64,000 bases of DNA from Octopus vulgaris. Its lineage: Eukaryota. The DNA is taken from NCBI GenBank assembly GCA_951406725.2, contig OX597832.1, positions 51,646,001 to 51,710,000 on the forward strand, written 5' to 3'. Position numbers and translations under genes: made by a program. A model generated the notes under the pieces. It saw nothing but the letters and a program-made list of their open reading frames with translations. It ran no database searches and was not told where the DNA came from. This document shows positions 3,016-60,616 of the stretch, in pieces. Within the stretch, counting starts at the first letter, position 1, and every line of letters begins with the position of its first letter.

Positions 3016-6000
3016 AAAACCATAAGAAGTGTGGCCAGAATCTCCTGGAAAAAGACCATAGCAAGGGTCATTCCACAGTTGAATTGGAAGAGCCAAAAAA
3101 TGTGATAGGTGTGAAGAAGCCAAAATTTAAGTGGCTGAAAGCAAATGGTGCAGTGAGCTATAAAAAATTTTGACGACGAGGTAGCAAGAATGACCACCAA
3201 ATTCAAAGATGACAACGAGCAAAAGCTTGAGAACTTGGCTAATATAATCTACAAGGAAGGGGAGAAAAGATTTGAACTTGAAACAACAGGGAACGTAGAA
3301 TCATCGGCAAAGGGCAGACCATTGAGGGGAGAAAGACGGATCGCAAAGATATGAGAAGAGAAGGGTTAAAGCAGCTATATGAAGAGATAAAAAAGAAAAG
3401 AGGCATTAAGAACTACTCAGAAAAGAAAGAAGGAAGAACAGAAGAAAGGAGAGAGAAAAGAACTATCGTAGTTTTGTGAACAACCCTTACAAATACTCGT
3501 ATGTGAAACATTTATTTACTGAGAGTAAAAGCGGAAGATTGGATTGCACGAAAGAGGAGCTCGAATGCCATCTTAAAGGGACAATGACTCTGACAGAAAT
3601 AAAATACTCCCAGAAATGCACGGGCTGAAGAAAGCACCTGAACCAAGGGTACCATTCGATTCGAGTGACATCAGACGAAAAGAAATGGATGAGTTCATAA
3701 GAAAAGCAAGAGCAAAAAGTTCACCAGGGAACGATGGAGTGAGCAACAAGGTATATAAGTATTGCCCGAAATTACGTGTGCAGTTGTTTGCACTGATAAG
3801 AGAAATGTGGAAGAAGAAAGATGTAGCAGAGCGATGGTGTATAGCTGAAGGTATCTATTTACCTGAAGAGAAAGATACAAAAACACTAAGGCAATTCAGA
3901 CCCATTTCATTATTAAATACTGATGGGAAAAATCATGTTTGGAATTATTGCTAGACAAATCATAAGATTCATACAGCATAACGGATATGTTAATGAAGCA
4001 ATCCAAAAAGCAGGGATCCCTAGAATCCCTGGGTGCATAGAAAATGCATTTGCCATCTGGAACGCTATCACCTGTGCAAAACAACTGAGGAAAAACCTGT
4101 ACATTGTGTAGCTAGATCTTGCCAATGCTTATGGATCTGTTTCACACGCACTAATTCAAGCAGCTATGGATTTCTTTTGGATTCCAGAAGATGTTCAACG
4201 AATGCTCATGTGTTACTACGACAACTTGAGAATGAGATTTACAGCAGGGAAGTTCACAACAGAGTGGTATTGCAGCTTGATGCACAATATCAGTCATCTT
4301 ATTTGTGTTAGTCATGAAGATGTTACAAAGATACCATTAAGGGCTTTTATGGATGACGTAACTATATTATCAGAAAGTAGAGAAGCAGCAGATGGAATGT
4401 TAGAGCGGTTGGACGAACTGATAGAATGGGCAAGAATGAAATTCAATGCCAAAAAATCTCGAAGTGTGGCTTTCATGAAAGGAATGCAAGAAGAAGTGAA
4501 ATTCAGGATAGGAGGTGAAGACATACCAACGGTGAAAGAACAACTAGTAAAGAGTCTCGGCAGATGGTACAAAGATTTACTAAATGATAAAAAGCAAAGC
4601 AAAGAAACACATGATTTAGTGGAACAAGGACTAAAAGTAATTTATGGAACAACATTACCGGGAAAGTTCAAATGTTGGATACTGCAATTTGGACTGTACC
4701 TAAGGATAATGTGGCCACTGCAAATGTATGAAATAGCCTCGAGTAGAGTAGAAAGATTGGAACAAAGATGCAGTGTGTTTATCAGAAAATGGCTTGGTCT
4801 GCCGAAACCACTGAATACAACTGCACTATATGGAAAACCCGTGCTGCAACTACCAATAACATCAATCGCCAAAGAATATAAGGCAGGAAAGGAAAGGACA
4901 GTAATGACTCTAAGGTATTCAAAAGATCAGAGCATCCGAAAAAACCCTCCAAAAGTATGAACAGGGGGGAAATGGAATGTGGAAGAGGCAGTAAACAGGG
5001 TGATTGGAAAACTAAGGCACGCAGATATAGTCGGAGCGACGCAAGAAGCAAGAACCGGCCTAGGGTTGCAAAATTTCAGGCCATTTTGCAAGAGTAGTGT
5101 AAAAGAGATGAAAGAGGCAGTGGTACACGAAGTGAGAAAGGAGGAAGAAGAAAGGCGAAATGTACATTTGGTGCAATGTAGTCAACAGGGACAGAGCCTG
5201 AGATGGGAGGAATATGTGGTCAGTCGCAGAATCTCATAGAAGGAACTTTGGGTTTGGGAACAAGCAAGGACATTCTTCATGATCAAGTCTGCCTTCAACA
5301 TTTTACCCTCACCAGCAAATTTAGTCCGGTGGAACATACAAACTGATGAATGTAGATGTGGAGAGAAAGCAACGGTGAGACATGTTCTGTCAAACTGCAG
5401 GCTAGCACTAGACAGATATACATGGCATCACAATCAAGTACTTGGCGTCATAAGTGCAGCACTGAAGAAGATTGAGGGATATAATAGGGGTGAGTACCCA
5501 AAAGTGGAAAAGCACAGAAAAATATACTTCCACAAGGAGGGAAAAGGATACAAGGCCAGGCTTTCAAATAAAATATACGAAACAGATGAAAGATGGAAGG
5601 GATGCTAGGAGCTGGCCACGGATTTGGGAAAACTGTTAATATTTCCACTCATAAAAATGACAAAAAGACCAGACTTAATCCTATGGAACAGAATAGAGAA
5701 TCAGAATTTTGCTAGAGCTGACAGTGCCATGGGAAGAGAACATCACTAATGCAGAGCAACGGAAGGAGAAGAGGTATAAAAAATTAATAGAAGAGTGCAG
5801 AGAACAGGGATGAACTGTTGAGTATTACCACCAGGCAGTGAGGGCTAGAGGCTTCATTGAAAGGAAAATGACAACGTTATTCAAAATAAGGTTTGCATTT
5901 TTGAGCTCAGGAGTGAGAAAAGTAATGAGGATACAGGAGACAGTCGAAAGAGCTAGCTTCTATATATGGCTGAAGTGAGAAGACCAAAAATTGCTTGAAA

Positions 6001-22132: not shown

Positions 22133-24320
22133 TAACAGATAATAATTTCATTTATCAAAAAATGCTATGAGGATAAAACAAGCCTTCTTTTCTATAATGT
22201 TATTCAATAAAGCCACCTTCAACAACAATTCTTCTATATGAGATCTAAATCATCTACATGCTCAAATCAAGTGGTCCTGGTTCATTTTGGACATTACTCT
22301 GACTATGGCTGCTTTCAAAGAATCTTTGGTGTTATAAGCGTGTTTATTGACTTCTCTCTCAACAACACTCCACATGTAATAGTCCAATGGATTGAAATCT
22401 GGGGAATTAGGAGGCCAAATGTTAGGGGCTAGATGATCATGAACATTTTCAGCCATCCATTCTTGTGTTACTAGAGCCATGTGTGATAGTGCAGAGTCTT
22501 ACTGAAACATATATGGCCTTCCATTGCGTACACTGTCTATCCAGGGCTTAACAATTATTTCCAGGACCTCAATGTAGGTGGCAGAGTTAACTCTAAGGCC
22601 TTGTGGAAAGAAGTAAGGTGACAACCATTAAAACCATGACAGTTGCAGGAAATTATGTATGTATAACATTTGGACCTTCAGAAGGGTCTGTACATAACTA
22701 TCTGTCATTTGTTCTGTTGACTTTTTGAACTTGGTTGAAGTTTTCTCGCTTGCTGGATTTTTCAGTTTGTTTAAGAGCCTTTTAGGTCTGATGTAGTGAT
22801 TTTCTTTTGCTTTTTCCGACATAAACTGAACTTTCCCCATCATATATAACATATCTGATGTCTTTGTGGACAACATTTCTGACTGTTCCTTCTGAAACAT
22901 GGAGATCTTTATCAATTGGCCTCATGGACTTTCTGGGATTGTAATCAATGGTCTGTTGAACTTGCTGGATAAATTCAGGTGTTCTGATGATTTCAGAGTG
23001 TTTAGGATGCTTTTTATGCTTTGATACTGGTGATATGTTTCCATCTTCAGTCTCTAACTCCTTTACAAACTTTGTTGGCAAAACATCTGGCAACTTTTAA
23101 AAATCAAAATATTTCTAAATCGCTATGCTCAGCCTTTATAACCACAGTAACAGCATATCTCTTCATTTTTCGAGTAAGCTGAGGGTCTGTCATTATTATT
23201 TTCTGAGACAAAGATTATTCAGAGTTAGCAAAAAATGCAGCAATAGTCAAAAAAAGGTATCTCCTCTAATACCTTACGCACCCTCTCTCTATATATACGT
23301 ATATACATTATGAAGAGGAGTTAGTCAGGATTTGTATAAAAACTATTTATTTGGCGCTTTTGTCCCTTTCAGGTATTAATCAGGAATGATCTCTTATAGT
23401 AAATTCATACCTTTTATATTTTTTGTTTTTTTGTTTTTAAAGTTTCGGCTCAGAGCTGCGGCCATGTAAGTTTGTTGAAAAAGTATCTGGAGAAGAATTT
23501 GTTTCATTGGGTTTTGAAAAGAGGGTGTTCTTGGAGTGGTTATTTGAGATGTTCTTTGTCATTTTGAATCTATACATGTGTGTGTAAACATGTAGATACA
23601 GAAGTACAAAGAAATAAAGATGATGACATTACATCTTACACACACACACACACACACACAGTGCAAAAATTCACACATACACACATACATATATATATGC
23701 ATAGGGGGCTGTATTGGTGAAACAAACAATTCCCTTTGGCTATGAGCAAAAATCCACAGATAATACACCCAAAAAGAGACATCATTATCATCATCATCAT
23801 CGTTTAACATCCGCTTTCCATGCTAGCATGGGTTGGACGATTTGACTGAGGAGTGGCGAACCAGGCTCCAATCTTGATCTGGCAGAGTTTCTTCAGCTGG
23901 ATGCCCTTCCTAACCTCAACCACTCCAAGGGTGTAGTGGGTGCTTTTACATGCCACGAAAGTGCTAAATATATAGTTTTTGTCCAAATCCTATCTCTTTT
24001 CTTAATATATAAAATCTGTACACCACTTAAGTCTACACACATGCATACACACATATAATACATACATACACATCAATAGTTTCAAGGAATGAACTGCAAC
24101 CATGCTGGAACTCCACCTTGTTTTTATTTTTGTTTATGTGCGTGTCTCCCTCTTTTGTTCTTCTTCCTTTCTGTTTTTCTCTCCAATCTTTTCACTATTC
24201 TTCTCCTCTCCCCTTCACTATTCCCTCTCTCTCACTCTTCCTCCTTGACTCTCTTGTTGCTCACACGTGACCAACGACCATCCATCTTTCTTTCTTTCAC
24301 TTCCTTCCTAAAGACGAGAC

Positions 24321-25089
24321 GTGCTTTTATCTGTCTCTTCTCAAAGCTTGTTTTTCTAGCAGTCACCACTTCACATAGTCCTGTCTTAAAAGCCCTCACT
24401 GTTTGCTTTTTACTGTTTTGCTCTCACTGTCCTGTTTTTGTTACCTTTCACCCTCCGCTAAAAATCTCAAATTTTATTTAATTTGCTTTGCGGGAAGGAC
24501 TGTTTTAACAAAGTTGCATCTTGCCCTTACCTTCGAAACGTGGAGTAGATAAAACAGGGGACAACTGATGAAGGGAATGTTCTATATGTTGCCTGTCTCG
24601 TTTCTCTATTTATTTCCTCTCGTTGTTCAAAAAAAAAAGTTTGTTTTCTATGTTTTTATTTTTTATGTCTCATTTCTCATTCTGTCTATGTTTTTTGATG
24701 TCCTGTACCCATATATGCATGTATATATACATATATATGTAGGTATGTACATATATATATGTATATATGCATATATTCATATATTATTTATATTATATAT
24801 ATATTTTTTCGGCGCCCTTTTCAAGCCTAGCCAGGCTCATGGGCCCGGTTTCCTGGTTTCTGTGGTGTATGTGTTCCCCCCAGCTGGACGGGATGCCAGT
24901 CCATCGCAGCGTTATTCAAGAAACAGGAAGACAGAGTGAGAGAATACAATAAATGAATTAAAAACATTTGTGTATTAAGAATTTGGGTACTTTACCAACA
25001 GTATATTGGATAATTGATATCCCATTGTGGGTTACATCCATAACCCCTATTTTACTGTTTTTTATATATATATATGCCTGCTTGTGTGA

Positions 25090-25140
<51 letters not shown>

Positions 25141-26174
25141 CATACATATGTGAGTGTGTATGTGTATGTGTGTGTGTGCATGCTTGAATTTGAGCTTAAG
25201 TGGCTCTCAGTTATGTTCCAGATTATGGCTAACCACATCATCATCATCGTTGATTAACATCTGCTTTGACATAGAGCTATGCTGGATGCCTATCACAGAG
25301 CTATTCAGACTCCAGCTGTTTGACTTGGCATGGTTTCAATGGCTGGATGCCCTTTCTGTTTTTCTCTCCAATCACTATTCAACCACTTTGCAGACCATGT
25401 GTTGGGTGCTTTTATCTGTCTCTTCTCAAAGCTTGTTTTTCTAGCAGTCACCACTTCACATAGTCCTGTCTTAAAAGCCCTCACTGTTTGCTTTTTACTG
25501 TTTTGCTCTCACTGTCCTGTTTTTGTTACCTTTCACCCTCCGCTAAAAATCTCAAATTTTATTTAATTTGCTTTGCGGGAAGGACTGTTTTAACAAAGTT
25601 GCATCTTGCCCTTACCTTCGAAACGTGGAGTAGATAAAACAGGGGACAACTGATGAAGGGAATGTTCTATATGTTGCCTGTCTCGTTTCTCTATTTATTT
25701 CCTCTCGTTGTTCAAAAAAAAAAGTTTGTTTTCTATGTTTTTATTTTTTATGTCTCATTTCTCATTCTGTCTATGTTTTTTGATGTCCTGTACCCATATA
25801 TGCTTGTATATATACATATATATGTAGGTATGTACATATATATATGTATATATGCATATATTCATATATTATTTATATTATATATATATTTTTTCGGCGC
25901 CCTTTTCAAGCCTAGCCAGGCTCATGGGCCCGGTTTCCTGGTTTCTGTGGTGTATGTGTTCCCCCCAGCTGGACGGGATGCCAGTCCATCGCAGCGTTAT
26001 TCAAGAAACAGGAAGACAGAGTGAGAGAATACAATAAATGAATTAAAAACATTTGTGTATTAAGAATTTGGGTACTTTACCAACAGTATATTGGATAATT
26101 GATATCCCATTGTGGGTTACATCCATAACCCCTATTTTACTGTTTTTTATATATATATATGCCTGCTTGTGTGA

Positions 26175-26225
<51 letters not shown>

Positions 26226-26470
26226 CATACATATGTGAGTGTGTATGTGTATGTGTGTGTGTGCATGCTTGAATTTGAGCTTAAGTGGCTCTCAGTTATG
26301 TTCCAGATTATGGCTAACCACATCATCATCATCGTTGATTAACATCTGCTTTGACATAGAGCTGCCTATCACAGAGCTATTCAGACTCCAGCTGTTTGAC
26401 TTGGCATGGTTTCAATGGCTGGGTGCCCTTCCTAACACCAACCACTTTGCAGAATGTGTTGGGTGCTTTT
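24321..26470. repeat. Near-identical 1085-bp tandem duplication (units start at 24321 and 25406)
   Basis: Duplicated ORFs are offset by 1085 (24568/25653, 24767/25852); one substitution seen in about 950 bp. Confidence 0.95.
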
Positions 26471-27751
26471 CATGCGCCACAGGTACAGGTGCGTTTCTGC
26501 AGCACTGGCATAGGTACTTTTTAGGTAGTGGCGCTGGCACTTGAAAGGTTGATCCAATATGTGTGTGTAAGACAGCGATTTTAGTCAGCTTGACTTGTCT
26601 TATTAAGTACAACAAATTGCCACATCCCCCAGTCCCTTGTCATTTTGCCAGTGAGGGTTCAGTGTCCAAAGATCCTTCTCACCACTTCGTCCCACTTCTT
26701 TGATTTACTCCTTCCTGGCAGGACAAGTGAGACCATAACCCGTGGCCTCTACCTGGGACATAGCCAGCCCACTTATGCATACCTTTCCTTCTTGTGACAC
26801 AAACCCTACTTGTGAAGACCTGTTGAGGCAAGTGAAAATCAAAATCGAAATTGTTCAACATCAATGGAAATTGTAGCTGTGATACCAGTGCCGGTGGCAT
26901 GTAAGTGAACCATCCAAACGTGGCCGTTGCCAGCGCCACCCCGACTGGCCTCCGTGCCGGTGGCATGTAAAAATCACCATCCGATTGTGGCCATTGCCAG
27001 CCTCATCTGGCCTCTGTGCCGGTGGCACATAAAAAGCACCATCCGTTCGTTGCCGTTTGCCAGCCTCGTCTGGCACCTGTGCCGGTGGCACATAAAAAGC
27101 ACCCACTACACTCTCGGAGTGGTTGTCGTTAGGAAGGGCATCCAGCTGTAGAAACACTGCCAGATCAGACTGGGCCTGGTGCAGCCTTCTGGCTTCCCAG
27201 ACCCCAGTTGAACCGTCCAACCCATGCTAGCATGGAAAGCGGACGTTAAACGATGATGATGATGATGATGATGATGATGATAGGTGCCTTCCACAATTAG
27301 AGCATCGCACTTCTTCATGCAGCTGTCCTTGTCCATATACATCGCATGACCATTATCATCTATAATTACCGAGTTGTCACTCATGCTGTAAATTCCTCTG
27401 ATGGGTAATTATAAGTGTACAAAAATGCTGACAATTTTATTAATGATAGAGGATGGCACATCAGCACAGTGGGAAGAACCACTGATAAATGTTAGCAATC
27501 AAGTTAATATATGTACATACACAGAATTGAAACATACGAAGGATCAGATAAGATTGTAACATCTCGGTTGAAAACATTGCCCGCATAATGTATGTGTATA
27601 TATACACACTAACACCAGCACACATATATGTGCATATACATGCACACACACACATACACATACAAACATATACATACATACATATATACATATGGAAGTC
27701 TTTCAGTTTCCACTCACAAGGCTTTGGTTGGCCCTATAGTATGATGGGAGA

Positions 27752-33351: not shown

Positions 33352-34224
33352 TTATAAGTAAAGTTCTGTTTTGACATAATCTATTGCATCAGGTTTTTGT
33401 TGTGTGTCTTTTTGTTGTAATTTATCCATTTTTTTATCTAGCCTTTGCAAAGAATCTGATAGTTTATGAACATTAGCATTTACAAGATTACAAGAACTTG
33501 TTGGATTTTGAGATAATCCTTGTCTTTCATTTTGAATATTTTTGTCTTGAACCTCATCTAATGAGGAGTCCATAGCCTCTACAACGTGTTCATGTGGTAC
33601 ATAATCATCATTACAATTCACTTTTACATTTTCTTCGACTGTTCTACCATTGAACTTTGAAGTATCTATATGATTGCTTTCTTTATTTTCAGTTTGTAAA
33701 ATCTGTCCCTTCAAAGGTTTACTTTTATAAGAGTTAGTGCTTTCTTCGGGAATTTCCGAAATGTAATCTGGTTCAGAGAATATATAATCTGTGATACTCC
33801 CATTACTGTTTGTATTTTCACATGGAGGAATAGGATTCGATACAAGTTTCTTAAAATCATTTGGTTCATCAACATAATCTGGGCTACTGGAGACATTTTC
33901 CTCCATGTTACCATTCACACATGTGGAAACTGATGTAGATTGAACTTCAATGAAAGAACTATCTGGTGGTTCATCAGCGTAATCTGTTCTACTAGAGACA
34001 TTTCCCTTCATGTTACCATTCACACATGTGGGAACTGGGTTTGTTCGACGCTCACTTAAAGCAGATAATTCATGAGTATAATTTTTTGCATTGTCTGGTA
34101 ACTCATTAACTTGAACATAGCTTGGAATATGGTTTGCTACATCAGTTAGTAAACTCTTGTCAGATAAAGATTCCAGAGAATCATAGCCTGTTGATGTGTC
34201 ATTTTCTGGCGGAGTATTGACCAC
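33352..34224 (-). CDS. Receptor last coding exon; 290-aa acidic, Tyr-rich cytoplasmic tail
   Basis: Acceptor ttttttcag|GTG; open to TAA at 33352-33354. Translates VVNTPPENDTSTGYDSLES...DAIDYVKTELYL*. It is the longest non-repeat ORF in the window and has no kinase domain. Confidence 0.9.
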   Translation of the reverse strand: MVNTPPENDTSTGYDSLESLSDKSLLTDVANHIPSYVQVNELPDNAKNYTHELSALSERRTNPVPTCVNGNMKGNVSSRTDYADEPPDSSFIEVQSTSVSTCVNGNMEENVSSSPDYVDEPNDFKKLVSNPIPPCENTNSNGSITDYIFSEPDYISEIPEESTNSYKSKPLKGQILQTENKESNHIDTSKFNGRTVEENVKVNCNDDYVPHEHVVEAMDSSLDEVQDKNIQNERQGLSQNPTSSCNLVNANVHKLSDSLQRLDKKMDKLQQKDTQQKPDAIDYVKTELYL

Positions 34225-37676: not shown

Positions 37677-38952
37677 GTTGTCAAGAAAGTTCTTGGGATT
37701 TTTAACCTTTAAATTCAGATGTGCAATCTCGGCTCAAACGAAACTTTATAAATCGAAATAAACACAATCAGAATCAACACACTTTTGCCAACGCGAAACA
37801 AGTTTATTTATGCCAGTAGCGTAAAAATCCTGTGTTCTGCTGGCGATGAAGTCGTTGAAGGCGTGTTTGGCATTGTCTTGATTTTTGAAGCATTTCTCAA
37901 GCAGGAAGTTGTCAAGATGCTTGAAAAAGTGGTAGTCGGTAGGCAAGAGGTCTAGTGAGTATGGTGGATGAGGCAGAGTTTCGTAGCCCAATTCGTTCAA
38001 CTTCTGCAGGGTCAGTTGTGTGACGTGCGGCTGAGCATTGTTGTGGAGAATTGATCCTTTTCCATTGACCAATGCTGGCTGTTGTTGTCGGAGTTTCTTA
38101 TGCATTTCATCCATTTGCTGACAGTACTTCTCTGCCATAATGGTTTCACCTGGATCCCAAAAGCTGTGATGGATGAGACCGGCCGCAGACCACCAAACAG
38201 TCACCATGACCTTCTTTTGGTGCAACTTTGGCTTCGGGAAGTGCCGTGGAGCTTTGTCGGCATCCAACCACTGAGCTGAGCATTGCTGGTTGCCGTAAAG
38301 AATCCACTTTTCATCGCAAGTCACAATCCAGTCGAGAAACGGGTCATTCTTGTTGCATATGAGAAGGGAAGACAACACTTCAGAACGGCATTTTTTTTTG
38401 GTTGTCATTCAATTCGTGTGACACCCATTTCTCAAGTATTTTTGTTTTTCCTGTCTCTTTCAAGTGGTTGGAAATTGTTGTATACATTACATCTAATTCA
38501 AAAGCAATCCCTTGAACAGTTGTGCATGAATTGGCTTTCACTAAGGCTCTTAGTTGATCGGTGTCAACATCCGATGGCTGAGCACTACGCTTATCATCTT
38601 CAAGACTCTCGTCACTGCTACAAAATTTCTTGAACCACCATTGTGCTGTACGTTCATTAGTGGTTCCTGGGCCAAATGCATCATTGATAGCGCTGTTTCA
38701 GCAGCTTTTTGGCCTAGCTTGAACTGGAATAAGAAAATTGTGCGAATTTGCTTTTTGTCCATGTTGTATTCAACATGGACGGAAAAAATGGCCTAATTAT
38801 TCAAAAAGCAAAAGAGTAACATGATTAGATAGAGCACAAAACGGGCTTTAAAATGATATATAAAGTCAAAGTAATTTAATGAAAATTAATTTGAAAATAT
38901 ATCATTTAAAACCAAAATTTAAAATTCCACAAGCACTTTCTTGATAACCCAA
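37673..38952 (-). mobile_element. Full-length (1280 bp) mariner, cecropia/Hsmar1-like; transposase frameshifted
   Basis: TA-flanked TIRs ttaggttgtcaagaaagt and actttcttgataacccaa. Protein motifs [36 protein letters not shown] (second catalytic D is N) and [16 protein letters not shown]. Confidence 0.95.
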
Positions 38953-42575: not shown

Positions 42576-45400
42576 TAGACATGGGCGATTGTTGTATTCT
42601 TTCTTGTCTTGAGGTTCACAGCCAAACGGGTGGGTGGATTTGCGTGAAAAATGGCACACATGTGGAGACAGGTGCATAGATTGGAATGCAATTTGTATTT
42701 TTTTTCCTAGCCCCCATAGTTACCGAGAAAATCAATGAAAACTTTTCTAATGGAATTCCCATGCCAACATACATAACCACTCTCTCTCTCCTTTCCTCTG
42801 TCAGTCACTCACACATTCACTCACTACAAAAGTGAATAACAAAATTTCAGTTCACTCTCTCTCGGCCATAATAGATACATACATCTATGTATACATATAT
42901 ACTTACATACATACATACATACATAACAATCTGCGTGCATGTGTGTGTGTCACTGAAGCCATTCATACATACATAACCTCTCTCTCTCTCTTTTACTCTG
43001 TCAATACTCACACATTCACTCACTACAAAAAGTGAATAAAAAATTTCAGTTATCTCTCTCTCTCTTTTCACACACGCTAACAATAGCAATTCACATATAC
43101 ACCACACATTCTGTCTCACACACCCCATCAAACACACACACACACATACACTCTCTCTCTCTCATTCTCACACACACACATCAATTCTTCCGCTTCATGC
43201 CAACTTCAAAAGAACTTCACTCATACAATCACTATCTCTCTGTGTCTTTTGCTTTCACACCAACTTCAAAAGATCCCCTTTCCACCCAACCCTATATTAC
43301 AAAAATAAAAATTTCTTATGGAGAAGGGCTCCTGACTCCTTTTACTGCAGGCGAAGGAGTAAAAAACGAAGATATTTTCACTTGTCCGGACATTGCTATT
43401 ACAGACAAATTAACAACAATTTGACTCGAGAGATAAACACAAACTACCTCATGCTGACTGCAAAAATCCTGCCAAATTAGCCGGAATAATACACACATCC
43501 ATTTCATATATCTTCTTTCAATTTCTGCTCTTTGATTACAAAGACGTCCAATACAATAGCTCTCACCTACATTTTGTTCTCTAAAAAGGTACGTGTCTAT
43601 TTTTTCTATAAGCGTATAACAATGACTTATTTCATACTTCTCCACTTAGCTTTTATCTCCACTTTTCTTCAACTGGATACGTCTGCTGTTAAATTGCAGA
43701 ACTTTGGCAGTACAGTTAAAAATCATTTCTGCTTTACTTCTTACATACAATTTCCCCGTAAATTCTTACAGCTTCATTTTTTGGTGATGATTGAAATGTC
43801 AAACATTTTCTAACTGTTAAGCAATTCTTAACATCAACTTCTTAATGCCTCTTCTATTTTTTTCCTAGCCTCCATACTTAGTAAGAAAATCAATTAAAAC
43901 TCTTTGTTCTGCCATTAAAACAACCAGTTATTCACACAGCTGCCATATACTATTCCGCTAGCAACAAGGGGACTACAGGATGACAGTCAGCCAAAACTTT
44001 CCCTATGCTATCTCTCTTCTTTCACCTCTTTGTGGGGTTAATTATCTTCATCTTTAGTTACAGTTTCTCATTAAAACTACATAATATGCAGAATTGTCGG
44101 ATTAATACAGTAGGGTGTTTTGAGGGAGATTTGGCTGCTATTTCTACCAGGTCTACCAACCATGTAGAGGTCTGAACTTGATTTTCATTCACAGATTTGC
44201 ATTTCAAAAATTTCCCACTGAGACTACGTACAAATTCTTTGTTCACAACTCCTGAAGTTGTTTTCTGCGAAGATATTTTCATTTGTCCGAGCATTGCTAT
44301 TAGACAAATTAACAACAATTCAACTCAAGAGATAAACTCAGTTGCTCACACAGCCGGCATATACCATTTCGCTAGGAACAAGGGGACTACAGGATGACAG
44401 TCAGCCAATACCTTATGCCTAACTAAAAACGATAGGCGATCTCTTATCATTTAGCTTCATGCTTATTCACTATTGTCCTTCAAAGCTGCATGCTTTTTTT
44501 TAGAAACATTTCATTACTTTTTTTCTTATTTATCATTATACATTTCCACCTATAATAAAAGATAAAGATTAATACTTCGTTCAAAAACCTTAAAGTTTCC
44601 CTTTCAGACACGGGTTCAAGTTTCAAAAAAACTATACTTTCGCTACACTTACTATTTGCTTCTTTAAAAAATCTCATGACTTTTGCCTTAGTAAAAACCA
44701 TCTTTACAGATAATGCCTAACCAAAAACAATCAATGCTCTGTTCCAAAAGGAATGCCCTCCTAAAACAGCGAAAAAGTGAGTTGTGTTCACAGGTACGTT
44801 TTTCAACCTTCATATCATTTCGATTTTGCTTCCACACATTCTCCTGTATCCCATTTCAATATTGCACTTTCATATATGTCCTCTACTATTCCTTTCAGGA
44901 AACACCAGAAGCAAGAGAGGCCCGTCTTGCTGCACAGCGTAGTCATGATCAACGCTCACTACTTGACGAGCCTGTTGAAGCAAGGCAGGCCCATCTTGCT
45001 TCCATGCATATTTGAAATCAGCGCTCATTCTTTGAGGAGTTGGCAGAAACAAGACAGGCCCGTCTTGCTGCCCTGGATGTTTCAATAATGTGTATCGGCA
45101 CGTGGATGATAATCAAAAAATTATACTCCCGCGTTCTGCAGGCAACCGTCTTGAATGGACCAGCCACTGTTATAGACACATATCATATCTCTCCGACTAA
45201 CTGCATATTAATGAAAATAGAAAGATTCCAACCTCAGTTACAGATTAGATATTTGAAAAAACTTACTAGAGTTTCACAGACAATTCCAGAATATGGCGCA
45301 TGGTTGCTATTTTCTCCTCCAATTGTATCAGGATAATGGTACTCAGCAGAATTAATTCTAGGATCCTAAATAGATATTAAACAAAGTGTATACAAATTTA
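42571..45400 (+). mobile_element. Internally deleted Helitron remnant with N-terminal repeats and a helicase fragment
   Basis: ETPEAREARLA/EARQAHLA/ETRQARLA repeats (44899-45075) and IKKLYSRVLQATVLNGP (Pif1-like). Internal duplications at 43369/44269 and 43933/44346. The 3' end was not found. Confidence 0.55.
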
Positions 45401-47143: not shown

Positions 47144-47189
47144 CACTTTCGCGTATTCAATACTAATTTGCTTCTTATATTTGTTGTAT
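47144..47189 (-). CDS. Receptor juxtamembrane exon (Box1 position)
   Basis: Acceptor atttatttcag|A, donor GTG|gtaaat; 46 nt, phase 2 to 0. Translates (R)YNKYKKQISIEYAKV and bridges the phase-2 TM exon to the phase-0 last exon. Confidence 0.8.
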
Positions 47190-48311: not shown

Positions 48312-48399
48312 CTGGAATAATATTGTTTCAGGCATAGAAATATTGCCAGTATTACAGACAGTAATACAGGTACAATTATTGCAACCAGATTTACAAATT
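48312..48399 (-). CDS. Receptor transmembrane exon
   Basis: Acceptor tttttcatag|AA, donor CCAG|gtaagt; 88 nt, phase 1 to 2. Translates EFVNLVAIIVPVLLSVILAIFLCLKQYYS: a hydrophobic helix followed by a basic residue. Confidence 0.92.
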
Positions 48400-51673: not shown

Positions 51674-51838
51674 CTGTGTCTTTAGTCATTCCTATTGTGG
51701 GGTCACTCATTACACTTAGTCCAGCCTTTGTCTTCACTTGTATACATACTGTATATTCTGTGCCTGTTGATAGGCCATTGATGACAACATCATTTTCAGC
51801 AGCTTTTATTCCAATCACTGGAAATTCTTTCTTCGTAC
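51674..51838 (-). CDS. Receptor exon; C-terminal half of membrane-proximal FN3 domain
   Basis: Acceptor cctttatag|GT, donor ACAG|gtaaag; 165 nt, phase 1 to 1. Translates GTKKEFPVIGIKAAENDVVINGLSTGTEYTVCIQVKTKAGLSVMSDPTIGMTKDT (FN3 I.GL..GTEY.V.I...T.AG.S..S signature). Confidence 0.92.
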
Positions 51839-55900: not shown

Positions 55901-56041
55901 CATTTTCACAACTCTTACCCTCTGCATAATGCAGCACATAAGCAATGGGTATATCATTCCAGTCAGAACATTGCAGTGTAGGCCATGTAAGAGAAAACTT
56001 AGTTTCTGACCAACTGATACCAGGTGTCCGAGGTTTCTTGG
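55901..56041 (-). CDS. Receptor exon; N-terminal half of membrane-proximal FN3 domain
   Basis: Acceptor tgtttcag|CC, donor AATG|gtgagt; 141 nt, phase 1 to 1. Translates PKKPRTPGISWSETKFSLTWPTLQCSDWNDIPIAYVLHYAEGKSCEN (FN3 P..P, L.W, Y.L.Y pattern). Too short for the ORF track. Confidence 0.9.
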
Positions 56042-60465: not shown

Positions 60466-60616
60466 GTTTTCCAGGTGTAAATATACATTCAGCGTTCATT
60501 AAAGAACTGCTTCCATTTTCTGTGCTAACGTATGCAGCAAAAACAGGACTTTGTTCTGCTCTGTAATTTACCAACAGATAACTTTCATTCACAAGTGTTT
60601 TCCATTTGACATGGTC
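60466..60616 (-). CDS. Internal exon (most 5' found) of a Domeless/gp130-like type I cytokine receptor; C-terminal half of an FN3 domain
   Basis: Acceptor ttgcttctag|GAC, donor AAAC|gtaaat; 151 nt, phase 0 to 1. Translates DHVKWKTLVNESYLLVNYRAEQSPVFAAYVSTENGSSSLMNAECIFTPGK, resembling the FA(V/I)S..SSGM.W..C segment of invertebrate Domeless-type receptors. In phase with the next exon. Confidence 0.85.

What the first reader, a model, noticed from the sequence alone, without database searches (positions are those of the whole stretch)
47144..47189. Consensus ITIM (IEYAKV) where the proline-rich JAK-binding Box1 should be
Seen: after the TM helix the sequence is KQYYSRYNKYKKQISIEYAKV|VVNTPP. 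There is no hydrophobic-P-x-P Box1, but IEYAKV matches [ILVS]xYxx[LV] exactly, and a TxYxxL motif (TGYDSL) follows about 13 residues later. Known: Box1 prolines recruit JAK, and tandem ITIM/ITSM motifs recruit SHP-type phosphatases. Inference: this may be an inhibitory or JAK-uncoupled cytokine receptor paralogue.
Basis: partly seen in the sequence, partly recalled or inferred. Interest (0 to 1): 0.7.

Follow-up and report, generated by a model that had tools for sequence, protein, structure and literature searches.

The report
Proline-less JAK site in octopus receptor
The supposed inhibitory motif is the worn-down kinase-docking site of an octopus Domeless-type cytokine receptor that has lost its key proline, so the motif match is likely chance, and the receptor likely still signals through, or modulates, JAK rather than acting as a phosphatase-recruiting brake.

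Summary
IEYAKV is really at 47161-47144 (minus strand), at the end of a 46-nt exon of an Octopus Domeless/gp130-type receptor. So VVNTPP does not follow IEYAKV, and TGYDSL lies 50 residues away, is not a strict ITSM and reads TGYDSM in O. bimaculoides. The 46-nt exon is the family's JAK-binding exon: a tandem paralogue has the same 46-nt exon reading IDIELP, matching the Drosophila Hop site (Pro925), against ISIEYA here. The ITIM reading does not. The tyrosine is absent from both Argonauta members of that clade and from the sister paralogue. Another paralogue has Tyr-Pro at this site. The flanking hydrophobics are inherited Box1 positions, and 54% of shuffled tails carry an ITIM. The chain keeps the hydrophobic register, a conserved LVVN[TL]PP element and 6 DY-hydrophobic sites, so weak or non-canonical JAK coupling is likelier than inhibition. 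No binding was tested.

The parts
60466..60616 (-). Coding exon, fifth extracellular (FN3) domain
   Evidence: exact match to P0001 436-485, AG/GT flanks
55901..56041 (-). Coding exon, start of the last FN3 domain
   Evidence: exact match to P0001 487-533
51674..51838 (-). Coding exon, end of the last FN3 domain
   Evidence: exact match to P0001 534-587
48312..48399 (-). Transmembrane exon (88 nt)
   Evidence: helix 654-685 in the model
47144..47189 (-). 46-nt Box1-position exon, YNKYKKQISIEYAKV; Ala stands where paralogues have the JAK-binding Pro
   Evidence: same length and phases as the exon of paralogues B and C
47144..47161 (-). IEYAKV, the ITIM-like hexamer; it is the decayed Box1 (I-x-I-x-Y-[P to A]-x-V)
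45267..45365 (-).
   Evidence: in 9 of 9 annotated models; canonical splice sites
34207..34224 (-). VVNTPP; with the preceding Leu a conserved LVVN[TL]PP element (Box2-like or second Box1-like)
   Evidence: 6 of 7 identical to Argonauta P0022, reached by 1 of 300 shuffles
34174..34191 (-). TGYDSL; not a strict ITSM, TGYDSM in O. bimaculoides, no counterpart seen in Argonauta P0022
33352..34224 (-). Last coding exon: 290-aa disordered acidic tail with six DY[VIA] motifs

Best explanation
IEYAKV is the remnant of the Domeless-type JAK-binding motif in an octopod paralogue that lost the proline, its ITIM match is likely incidental, and the chain likely works as a weakly or non-canonically JAK-coupled partner receptor whose tyrosine-rich tail would dock STAT-type SH2 proteins. 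Shown: gp130-like six-domain ectodomain, TM, Box1-position exon without Pro, an extra linker exon, a long tail with DY-hydrophobic motifs, and Pro-bearing paralogues (C in the same cluster, E elsewhere). Inferred: ligand-driven pairing with itself or with a Pro-bearing paralogue; reduced JAK affinity through the retained I-x-I-x-Y register plus the LVVN[TL]PP element about 40 residues downstream; phosphorylation of the DY sites; STAT recruitment.
For: Family: a profile of 60 relatives hits gp130 at E 2e-77, then LIFR, IL12RB2 and OSMR. The model (pLDDT mostly 85-98 over the ectodomain) matches gp130 best (E 5e-27), and named relatives are Domeless or cytokine receptors. Exon homology: A, B and C each have a 46-nt phase 2-0 exon after the TM exon, aligning without gaps as ISIEYA / IKVATI / IDIELP. 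The Drosophila Hop site read from the published primer is DIGLVLP925QGI, and P925I loses Hop binding. A strict hydrophobic-x-hydrophobic-x-hydrophobic-P occurs in 17 of 59 relatives with TM and tail (1.7 expected), a looser form in 36 of 59 (12.3 expected). The Pro lies at a median TM+17, and the Ala here is at TM+19. ITIM incidental: 54% chance; no Tyr in Argonauta P0022 (LDIEIF) or P0020 (FEIDTE); Tyr-Pro in paralogue E; P+2 is I/L/V in 12 of 36 Pro-bearing relatives against 18% background. 17 of 19 tail tyrosines are shared with O. bimaculoides anyway, so conservation within Octopus says little. Still coupled: the hydrophobic register survives Pro loss; Pro-less registers also occur in Haliotis P0039, Gigantopelta P0117 and Argonauta P0059, whose O. 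vulgaris counterpart has the Pro (read by eye); LVVN[TL]PP is conserved to Argonauta at the 20-40 residue distance described for Box2; there are six DY[VILA] motifs against 0.31 expected, and [DG]Y-hydrophobic motifs occur in the Argonauta tails too.
Against: In Drosophila the single Pro change nearly abolishes JAK binding and makes a dominant negative, and two JAKs are said to be needed, which favours the uncoupled rival. Both Tyr and Val are kept in all three Octopus species while the middle residues change (AK / VR). Strict L/V at P+2 is rare in the family (2 of 36), so the Val is not simply consensus. The DY excess is partly due to internal repeats, and the DY pattern was chosen after looking at the tail. 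The only YxxQ (YKKQ) is juxtamembrane and at chance level. The loose-motif counts at P-3 and P-1 are circular because the pattern demanded them. Orthology of Argonauta P0022 to A rests on the tail (z 2.1-3.8); the ectodomain tree joins it to the other Argonauta protein.
Confidence: 0.5

Rival explanations
1. JAK-uncoupled long co-receptor: loss of the Pro abolishes JAK binding, and the chain dampens signalling by forming one-JAK heterodimers with paralogue C or E or by holding STAT, without needing an ITIM.
For: Dome P925I binds very little Hop and is dominant negative. The Pro is absent in 8 of 8 rows of the A/B clade and present in 3 of the 4 rows of the sister C clade (the fourth, the O. 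vulgaris model, skips the exon, but the genome has it). A tandem duplicate acting as an inhibitor has a precedent in Et/Lat. No alternative Box1 exon was found among 1274 candidate exons in the introns.
Against: It keeps a 344-aa tail with six DY motifs, and similar motifs occur in Argonauta. The hydrophobic register and LVVN[TL]PP are conserved. Pro-less registers recur in other molluscan members. JAK contact can rest largely on Box2, as in the TYK2-IFNAR1 structure.
Confidence: 0.28
2. True ITIM receptor: in Octopus the dead Box1 was converted to a phosphotyrosine site that recruits an SHP-type phosphatase (or SOCS) and inhibits neighbouring receptors.
For: Exact consensus, the only strict ITIM in the first 70 tail residues of 58 of the 59 relatives' set being absent (2 of 59 rows carry one: this protein and P0083). 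Tyr and Val are kept in three Octopus species. This paralogue lacks the Yxx[IL] site that B, C, Argonauta and Sepia have 10-20 residues after Box1, so the site may have moved. ITIM-bearing receptors are reported in oyster (PMC11841013, search listing only).
Against: Chance level 54%. There is no tandem partner: the second motif is not an ITSM and is not conserved. The Tyr is absent from Argonauta and paralogue B. Tyr is a tolerated Box1 residue. Two of five O. bimaculoides models lack the Val. Even a real SHP2 site in this family need not be inhibitory, since gp130's SHP2 site engages ERK.
Confidence: 0.12
3. Splice switch: the symmetric 99-nt exon is a cassette whose skipping brings V-V-V-N-T-P-P to about TM+21, restoring a membrane-proximal Box1-like motif.
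For: The exon is phase 0-0. The Argonauta counterpart LVVNLP is a strict family motif, and insect relatives read V-x-V-K-L-P-P. TM+26 for the Pro is inside the family range of 12-28.
Against: 9 of 9 annotated models include the exon. Thr replaces the hydrophobic residue before Pro in Octopus. Strong splice sites flank the exon.
Confidence: 0.07

Closest known systems
Drosophila Domeless (protostome tall type I cytokine receptor)
   Same: FN3 ectodomain, degenerate WSxWS (STIWN here), single TM, long Tyr-bearing tail, hydrophobic register at the Hop-binding position
   Different: The Pro925 equivalent is Ala (Val in O. bimaculoides); no distal YxxQ; the first C..CxW pair of the cytokine-binding module is missing; several paralogues instead of one long receptor
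Drosophila Eye transformer / Latran
   Same: Tandem duplicate beside a canonical receptor; a candidate negative or accessory chain
   Different: Et/Lat is short, keeps the LP site and binds Hop; this protein is full length, lacks the Pro and keeps a 344-aa tail
gp130 / LIFR / IL12RB2 / OSMR
   Same: Six-domain tall architecture; best sequence-profile and fold matches; gp130 carries an SHP2/SOCS3 tyrosine site while being an activating chain
   Different: About 14% identity; no PxP Box1; the Tyr site here sits on the Box1 position itself rather than downstream
ITIM/ITSM inhibitory receptors (PD-1, KIR, teleost LITR, oyster NCAM1)
   Same: One hexamer fits the ITIM consensus
   Different: No conserved tandem motif, no conservation beyond one genus, cytokine-receptor ectodomain, many further DY sites; phosphatase binding untested

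Membership tests
Tall type I cytokine receptor (Domeless/gp130 family) | Ig-like domain + two-domain cytokine-binding module + three FN3 + single TM | tested here: met
   Six beta-sandwich domains and a TM helix in the model; gp130 is the best profile and fold match
Tall type I cytokine receptor (Domeless/gp130 family) | First cysteine pair with CxW in domain 2 | tested here: not met
   Absent in all 10 cephalopod A/B/C/D/Sepia rows (P0022 does not cover the region); present in 33 of 60 rows overall, including paralogue E of Argonauta
Tall type I cytokine receptor (Domeless/gp130 family) | WSxWS-like motif at the end of domain 3 | tested here: inconclusive
   Degenerate STIWN aligned with xxxWS of invertebrate relatives
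Tall type I cytokine receptor (Domeless/gp130 family) | Membrane-proximal JAK-binding proline motif | tested here: not met
   ISIEYA against IDIELP in paralogue C and IGLVLP in Dome
Tall type I cytokine receptor (Domeless/gp130 family) | STAT-docking tyrosines in the tail | tested here: inconclusive
   No distal YxxQ; six DY[VILA] against 0.31 expected; their likeness to STAT5-type sites is recalled, not tested
Tall type I cytokine receptor (Domeless/gp130 family) | Binds a cytokine and activates JAK/STAT | not testable with these tools
   needs cell assays
ITIM-bearing inhibitory receptor | [ILVS]xYxx[LV] in the cytoplasmic tail | tested here: met
   IEYAKV, but 53.8% of shuffles also have one
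ITIM-bearing inhibitory receptor | Second conserved ITIM or ITSM in tandem | tested here: not met
   TGYDSL fails TxYxx[VI], is TGYDSM in O. bimaculoides and is 50 residues away
ITIM-bearing inhibitory receptor | Motif conserved in orthologues | tested here: not met
   Kept in 3 Octopus species (7 of 9 models); absent in both Argonauta members of the clade
ITIM-bearing inhibitory receptor | Tyr phosphorylated, recruits SHP/SHIP, inhibits a co-engaged activating receptor | not testable with these tools
   needs pull-downs and reporter assays
Et/Lat-type short inhibitory co-receptor | Short tail, retained LP site, no ligand binding | tested here: not met
   344-aa tail, LP lost; ligand binding not tested

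The most novel reading that the evidence does not exclude
Octopods evolved a full-length Domeless paralogue lineage that shed its JAK-binding proline before Octopus and Argonauta split, and in Octopus the dead JAK site itself was rewired into a phosphotyrosine phosphatase-docking motif: a long, JAK-free inhibitory cytokine co-receptor, unlike the short Et/Lat type.
Probability: 0.12. Interest if true: 0.65.

Novelty: new variant of a known kind. Interest (0 to 1): 0.32.

Why it matters
The ITIM claim itself is weak, but the locus shows that octopods have at least five Domeless-family genes: two with the JAK-binding proline, two long ones without it, and one apparently secreted. Databases label them 'uncharacterized' or phosphatase-like. 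If the proline-less chains still signal, the proline is dispensable in molluscan JAK docking, unlike in flies. If they do not, they are natural versions of the dominant-negative Dome P925I mutant. Either result is directly testable and bears on how cephalopod immune and developmental cytokine signalling is tuned.

Tried and rejected
Splice junctions could not be checked on reads, so exon inclusion rests on annotation models. The run search listed no holder on record as RNA, which is no evidence either way. The first fold, from a 5-row alignment, was unusable (pLDDT 36.7) and was replaced by a 60-row model. A single-sequence PDB search gave only weak FN3 hits. Word-based homologue searches found only Octopus proteins; the distant relatives came. 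An intron scan for an alternative Box1 exon gave 156 motif-bearing candidates among 1274; the 11 with passable splice signals looked like repeat or transposon sequence and none was convincing. Family searches in the own genome for LIFR_D4 and two JAK domains found nothing real (the one hit was simple repeat). This does not show absence, but it left no intact octopus JAK or SHP2 sequence, so no complex was modelled. MAFFT's pairing of EYAKV with paralogue C's downstream EYATI was rejected in favour of exon-level homology. Rows dropped before the counts: 38 of 97 hits lacked a detectable TM, had a tail under 20 aa or exceeded 1500 aa; a few kept rows are probably not cytokine receptors. The scan's earlier findings returned nothing. 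PMC5645147 passages were uninformative.

Full report
Locus. The finding lies on the minus strand of a multi-exon gene. Its last exon matches P0001, a 955-aa Octopus vulgaris model, at 100%, and P0001 maps exon by exon onto the window. Orthologous models exist in O. sinensis (3) and O. bimaculoides (5). The 5' exons lie beyond the window's right end.

Observation. The TM exon (48399-48312) is followed by a 46-nt exon (47189-47144) reading YNKYKKQISIEYAKV, so the hexamer is real. The Tyr of TGYDSL is thus 50 residues from the Tyr of IEYAKV. That distance alone does not exclude two-site SH2 binding (recalled). However, TGYDSL fails TxYxx[VI] (consensus recalled) and is TGYDSM in O. bimaculoides. 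At least one strict ITIM occurs in 53.8% of 5000 shuffles of this tail. The splicing was not confirmed on reads.

Family. Pfam sees only FN3. The Atlas neighbours are a mollusc FN3 cluster, LIFR, gp130 and leptin receptor clusters at 0.94-0.96. A search of 50%-identity representatives gave 97 hits. Of the 20 looked up by name, several are Domeless, cytokine-receptor or IL6ST-like proteins of molluscs and an insect; most others are uncharacterized or carry phosphatase or adhesion labels. A 60-row profile hits gp130 at E 2e-77. The model from that alignment has six beta-sandwich domains, a TM helix and a disordered tail and matches gp130, OSMR and IL12RB2 best. The first C..CxW pair of the cytokine-binding module is missing in the cephalopod A/B/C/D clade, and the WSxWS position reads STIWN. 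It is therefore a divergent Domeless-type receptor that fails two family features (that Cys pair and the JAK proline).

Paralogues. The same contig carries B (plus strand, about 51.47-51.49 Mb) and C (minus strand, 51.52-51.61 Mb) next to this gene, A. D lies at 40.4 Mb and E on another contig; these searches are lower bounds. A, B and C all have a 46-nt phase 2-0 exon after the TM exon. Without gaps they read ISIEYA (A), IKVATI (B) and IDIELP (C). E has a 40-nt exon ending IPFEYP. D runs into a stop codon after its last FN3-type exon, as its Argonauta counterpart also ends without a TM, and no TM exon was found in 39 kb downstream.

What the site is. In PMC4751595 (passages read: abstract part, results section, primers) the Hop-binding site of Dome is an LP motif. 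The mutagenesis primer translates to DIGLVL-P925-QGI. P925I binds very little Hop and is dominant negative, and the short inhibitor Et/Lat keeps the site. Among 59 of the 97 hits that have a TM, a tail of at least 20 aa and at most 1500 aa, 17 carry a strict hydrophobic-x-hydrophobic-x-hydrophobic-P in the first 28 tail residues (1.7 expected) and 36 a looser form (12.3 expected). The Pro sits at a median TM+17 (range 12-28), and the Ala of IEYAKV is at TM+19. So IEYAKV is the Box1 position with the Pro replaced. Its Ile is a Box1 hydrophobic position. Its Tyr is a residue that paralogue E and a few relatives have before the Pro. Its Val falls where 12 of 36 Pro-bearing relatives have I/L/V, though only 2 of 36 have L/V.

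Evolution. An ectodomain tree of 22 rows puts A (3 Octopus), B (3 Octopus) and two Argonauta proteins in one clade (100/99), sister to C plus its Argonauta orthologue (99/97), with the Sepia-type protein outside. All 8 A/B rows lack the Pro at this position, while C, Argonauta C and the Sepia-type protein keep it. The Tyr occurs only in Octopus A: Argonauta has LDIEIF and FEIDTE. Argonauta P0022 is the likely orthologue of A by its tail (LVVNTPP against LVVNLPP, 1 of 300 shuffles; z 2.1-3.8). The tree groups it with the other Argonauta protein, which I attribute to gene conversion (inferred from near-identical A/B exons) and to its short coverage. Within Octopus the Tyr and Val are kept (IEYVRV), but 17 of 19 tail tyrosines are kept anyway. 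Two of five O. bimaculoides models read IEYEYG, probably through an alternative donor (I did not see that DNA).

Mechanism. Three points favour residual JAK coupling. First, the hydrophobic register persists after Pro loss, and Pro-less registers recur in two gastropods and in Argonauta E (by eye). Second, LVVN[TL]PP is conserved 33-40 residues downstream, where Box2 is described (PMC5394478, passages). Third, the tail has six DY[VILA] motifs against 0.31 expected (partly repeats, pattern chosen after inspection). Against it stands the Dome P925I result. I put weak or non-canonical coupling at 0.5, an uncoupled dampening chain at 0.28, a true ITIM at 0.12 and a splice switch at 0.07. In favour of the ITIM, only 2 of 59 rows have a strict ITIM in the first 70 tail residues, and A lacks the Yxx[IL] site that its relatives carry just after Box1. 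Even so, an SHP2 site in this family need not inhibit: gp130's site engages ERK and also binds SOCS3 (PMC6823243, passages), and ITIM/ITSM motifs can activate in teleost receptors (PMC4810170, passages).

Literature. Searches for domeless + octopus (2 papers), octopus + cephalopod + cytokine receptor + JAK + STAT (3 papers) and domeless/mollusc/box1/JAK (26 papers, 20 listed) showed no title or abstract describing these receptors. PMC13203501 (passages) treats molluscan IL6R/Domeless but has no occurrence of octopus, cephalopod or box 1 in its main text; its supplements were not read and might list octopus sequences. The library lacks most subscription papers.

Verdict. The Box1 proline is truly lost in an old octopod paralogue lineage, but the tandem ITIM/ITSM is an artefact of a missed exon plus a likely chance match. 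New variant of a known kind; interest 0.32.

Noticed in passing
G000:C19:51528649-51528694 (L008:8649-8694, minus): The O. vulgaris models of paralogue C (P0017, P0120; labelled phosphatase F-like) skip the 46-nt Box1 exon that is in the genome and in the O. sinensis and O. bimaculoides models: a probable annotation error hiding the Pro-bearing receptor.
   Followed up: yes
G000:C19:40402961-40457152 (minus): Paralogue D ends in a stop with no TM exon found; Argonauta P0023 ends likewise. It may be a conserved secreted cytokine receptor or decoy.
   Followed up: partly
G000:C13:10626000-10681246 (minus): Paralogue E has a Box1 exon ending IPFEYP; its Argonauta counterpart keeps the C..CxW pair but reads IPIDIG without that Pro. 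A further weak hit lies at C13:9749570-9749779.
   Followed up: partly
window 33355-33930 and G000:C19:51466052-51487132: A and B are nearly identical in one FN3 exon and in the distal tail but very different in domains 1-3 and the juxtamembrane region, in both Octopus species compared: likely gene conversion. B has a tandem expansion of a 34-aa repeat carrying TDYVDE.
   Followed up: partly
O. bimaculoides models P0004, P0015 against P0013, P0014, P0016: A three-residue isoform difference removes VRV right after the Tyr, switching the ITIM match off; probably an alternative splice donor.
   Followed up: no
window 37749-38800 (minus): Broken mariner-like transposase in the last intron (recognised by eye from the translation).
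   Followed up: no
window 3410-5605 (plus): Broken non-LTR retrotransposon reverse-transcriptase frames (recognised by eye); many more lie in the neighbouring loci L005-L019.
   Followed up: no
window 24080-26541: Near-identical translated stretches recur about 1.1 kb apart, suggesting a local tandem duplication.
   Followed up: no
tails of B, C, Argonauta, Sepia-type and bivalve relatives: A Yxx[IL] site 10-20 residues after Box1 recurs across the family (EYATI, DYEKI, SYEDI, TYNEI) but is missing in A.
   Followed up: partly
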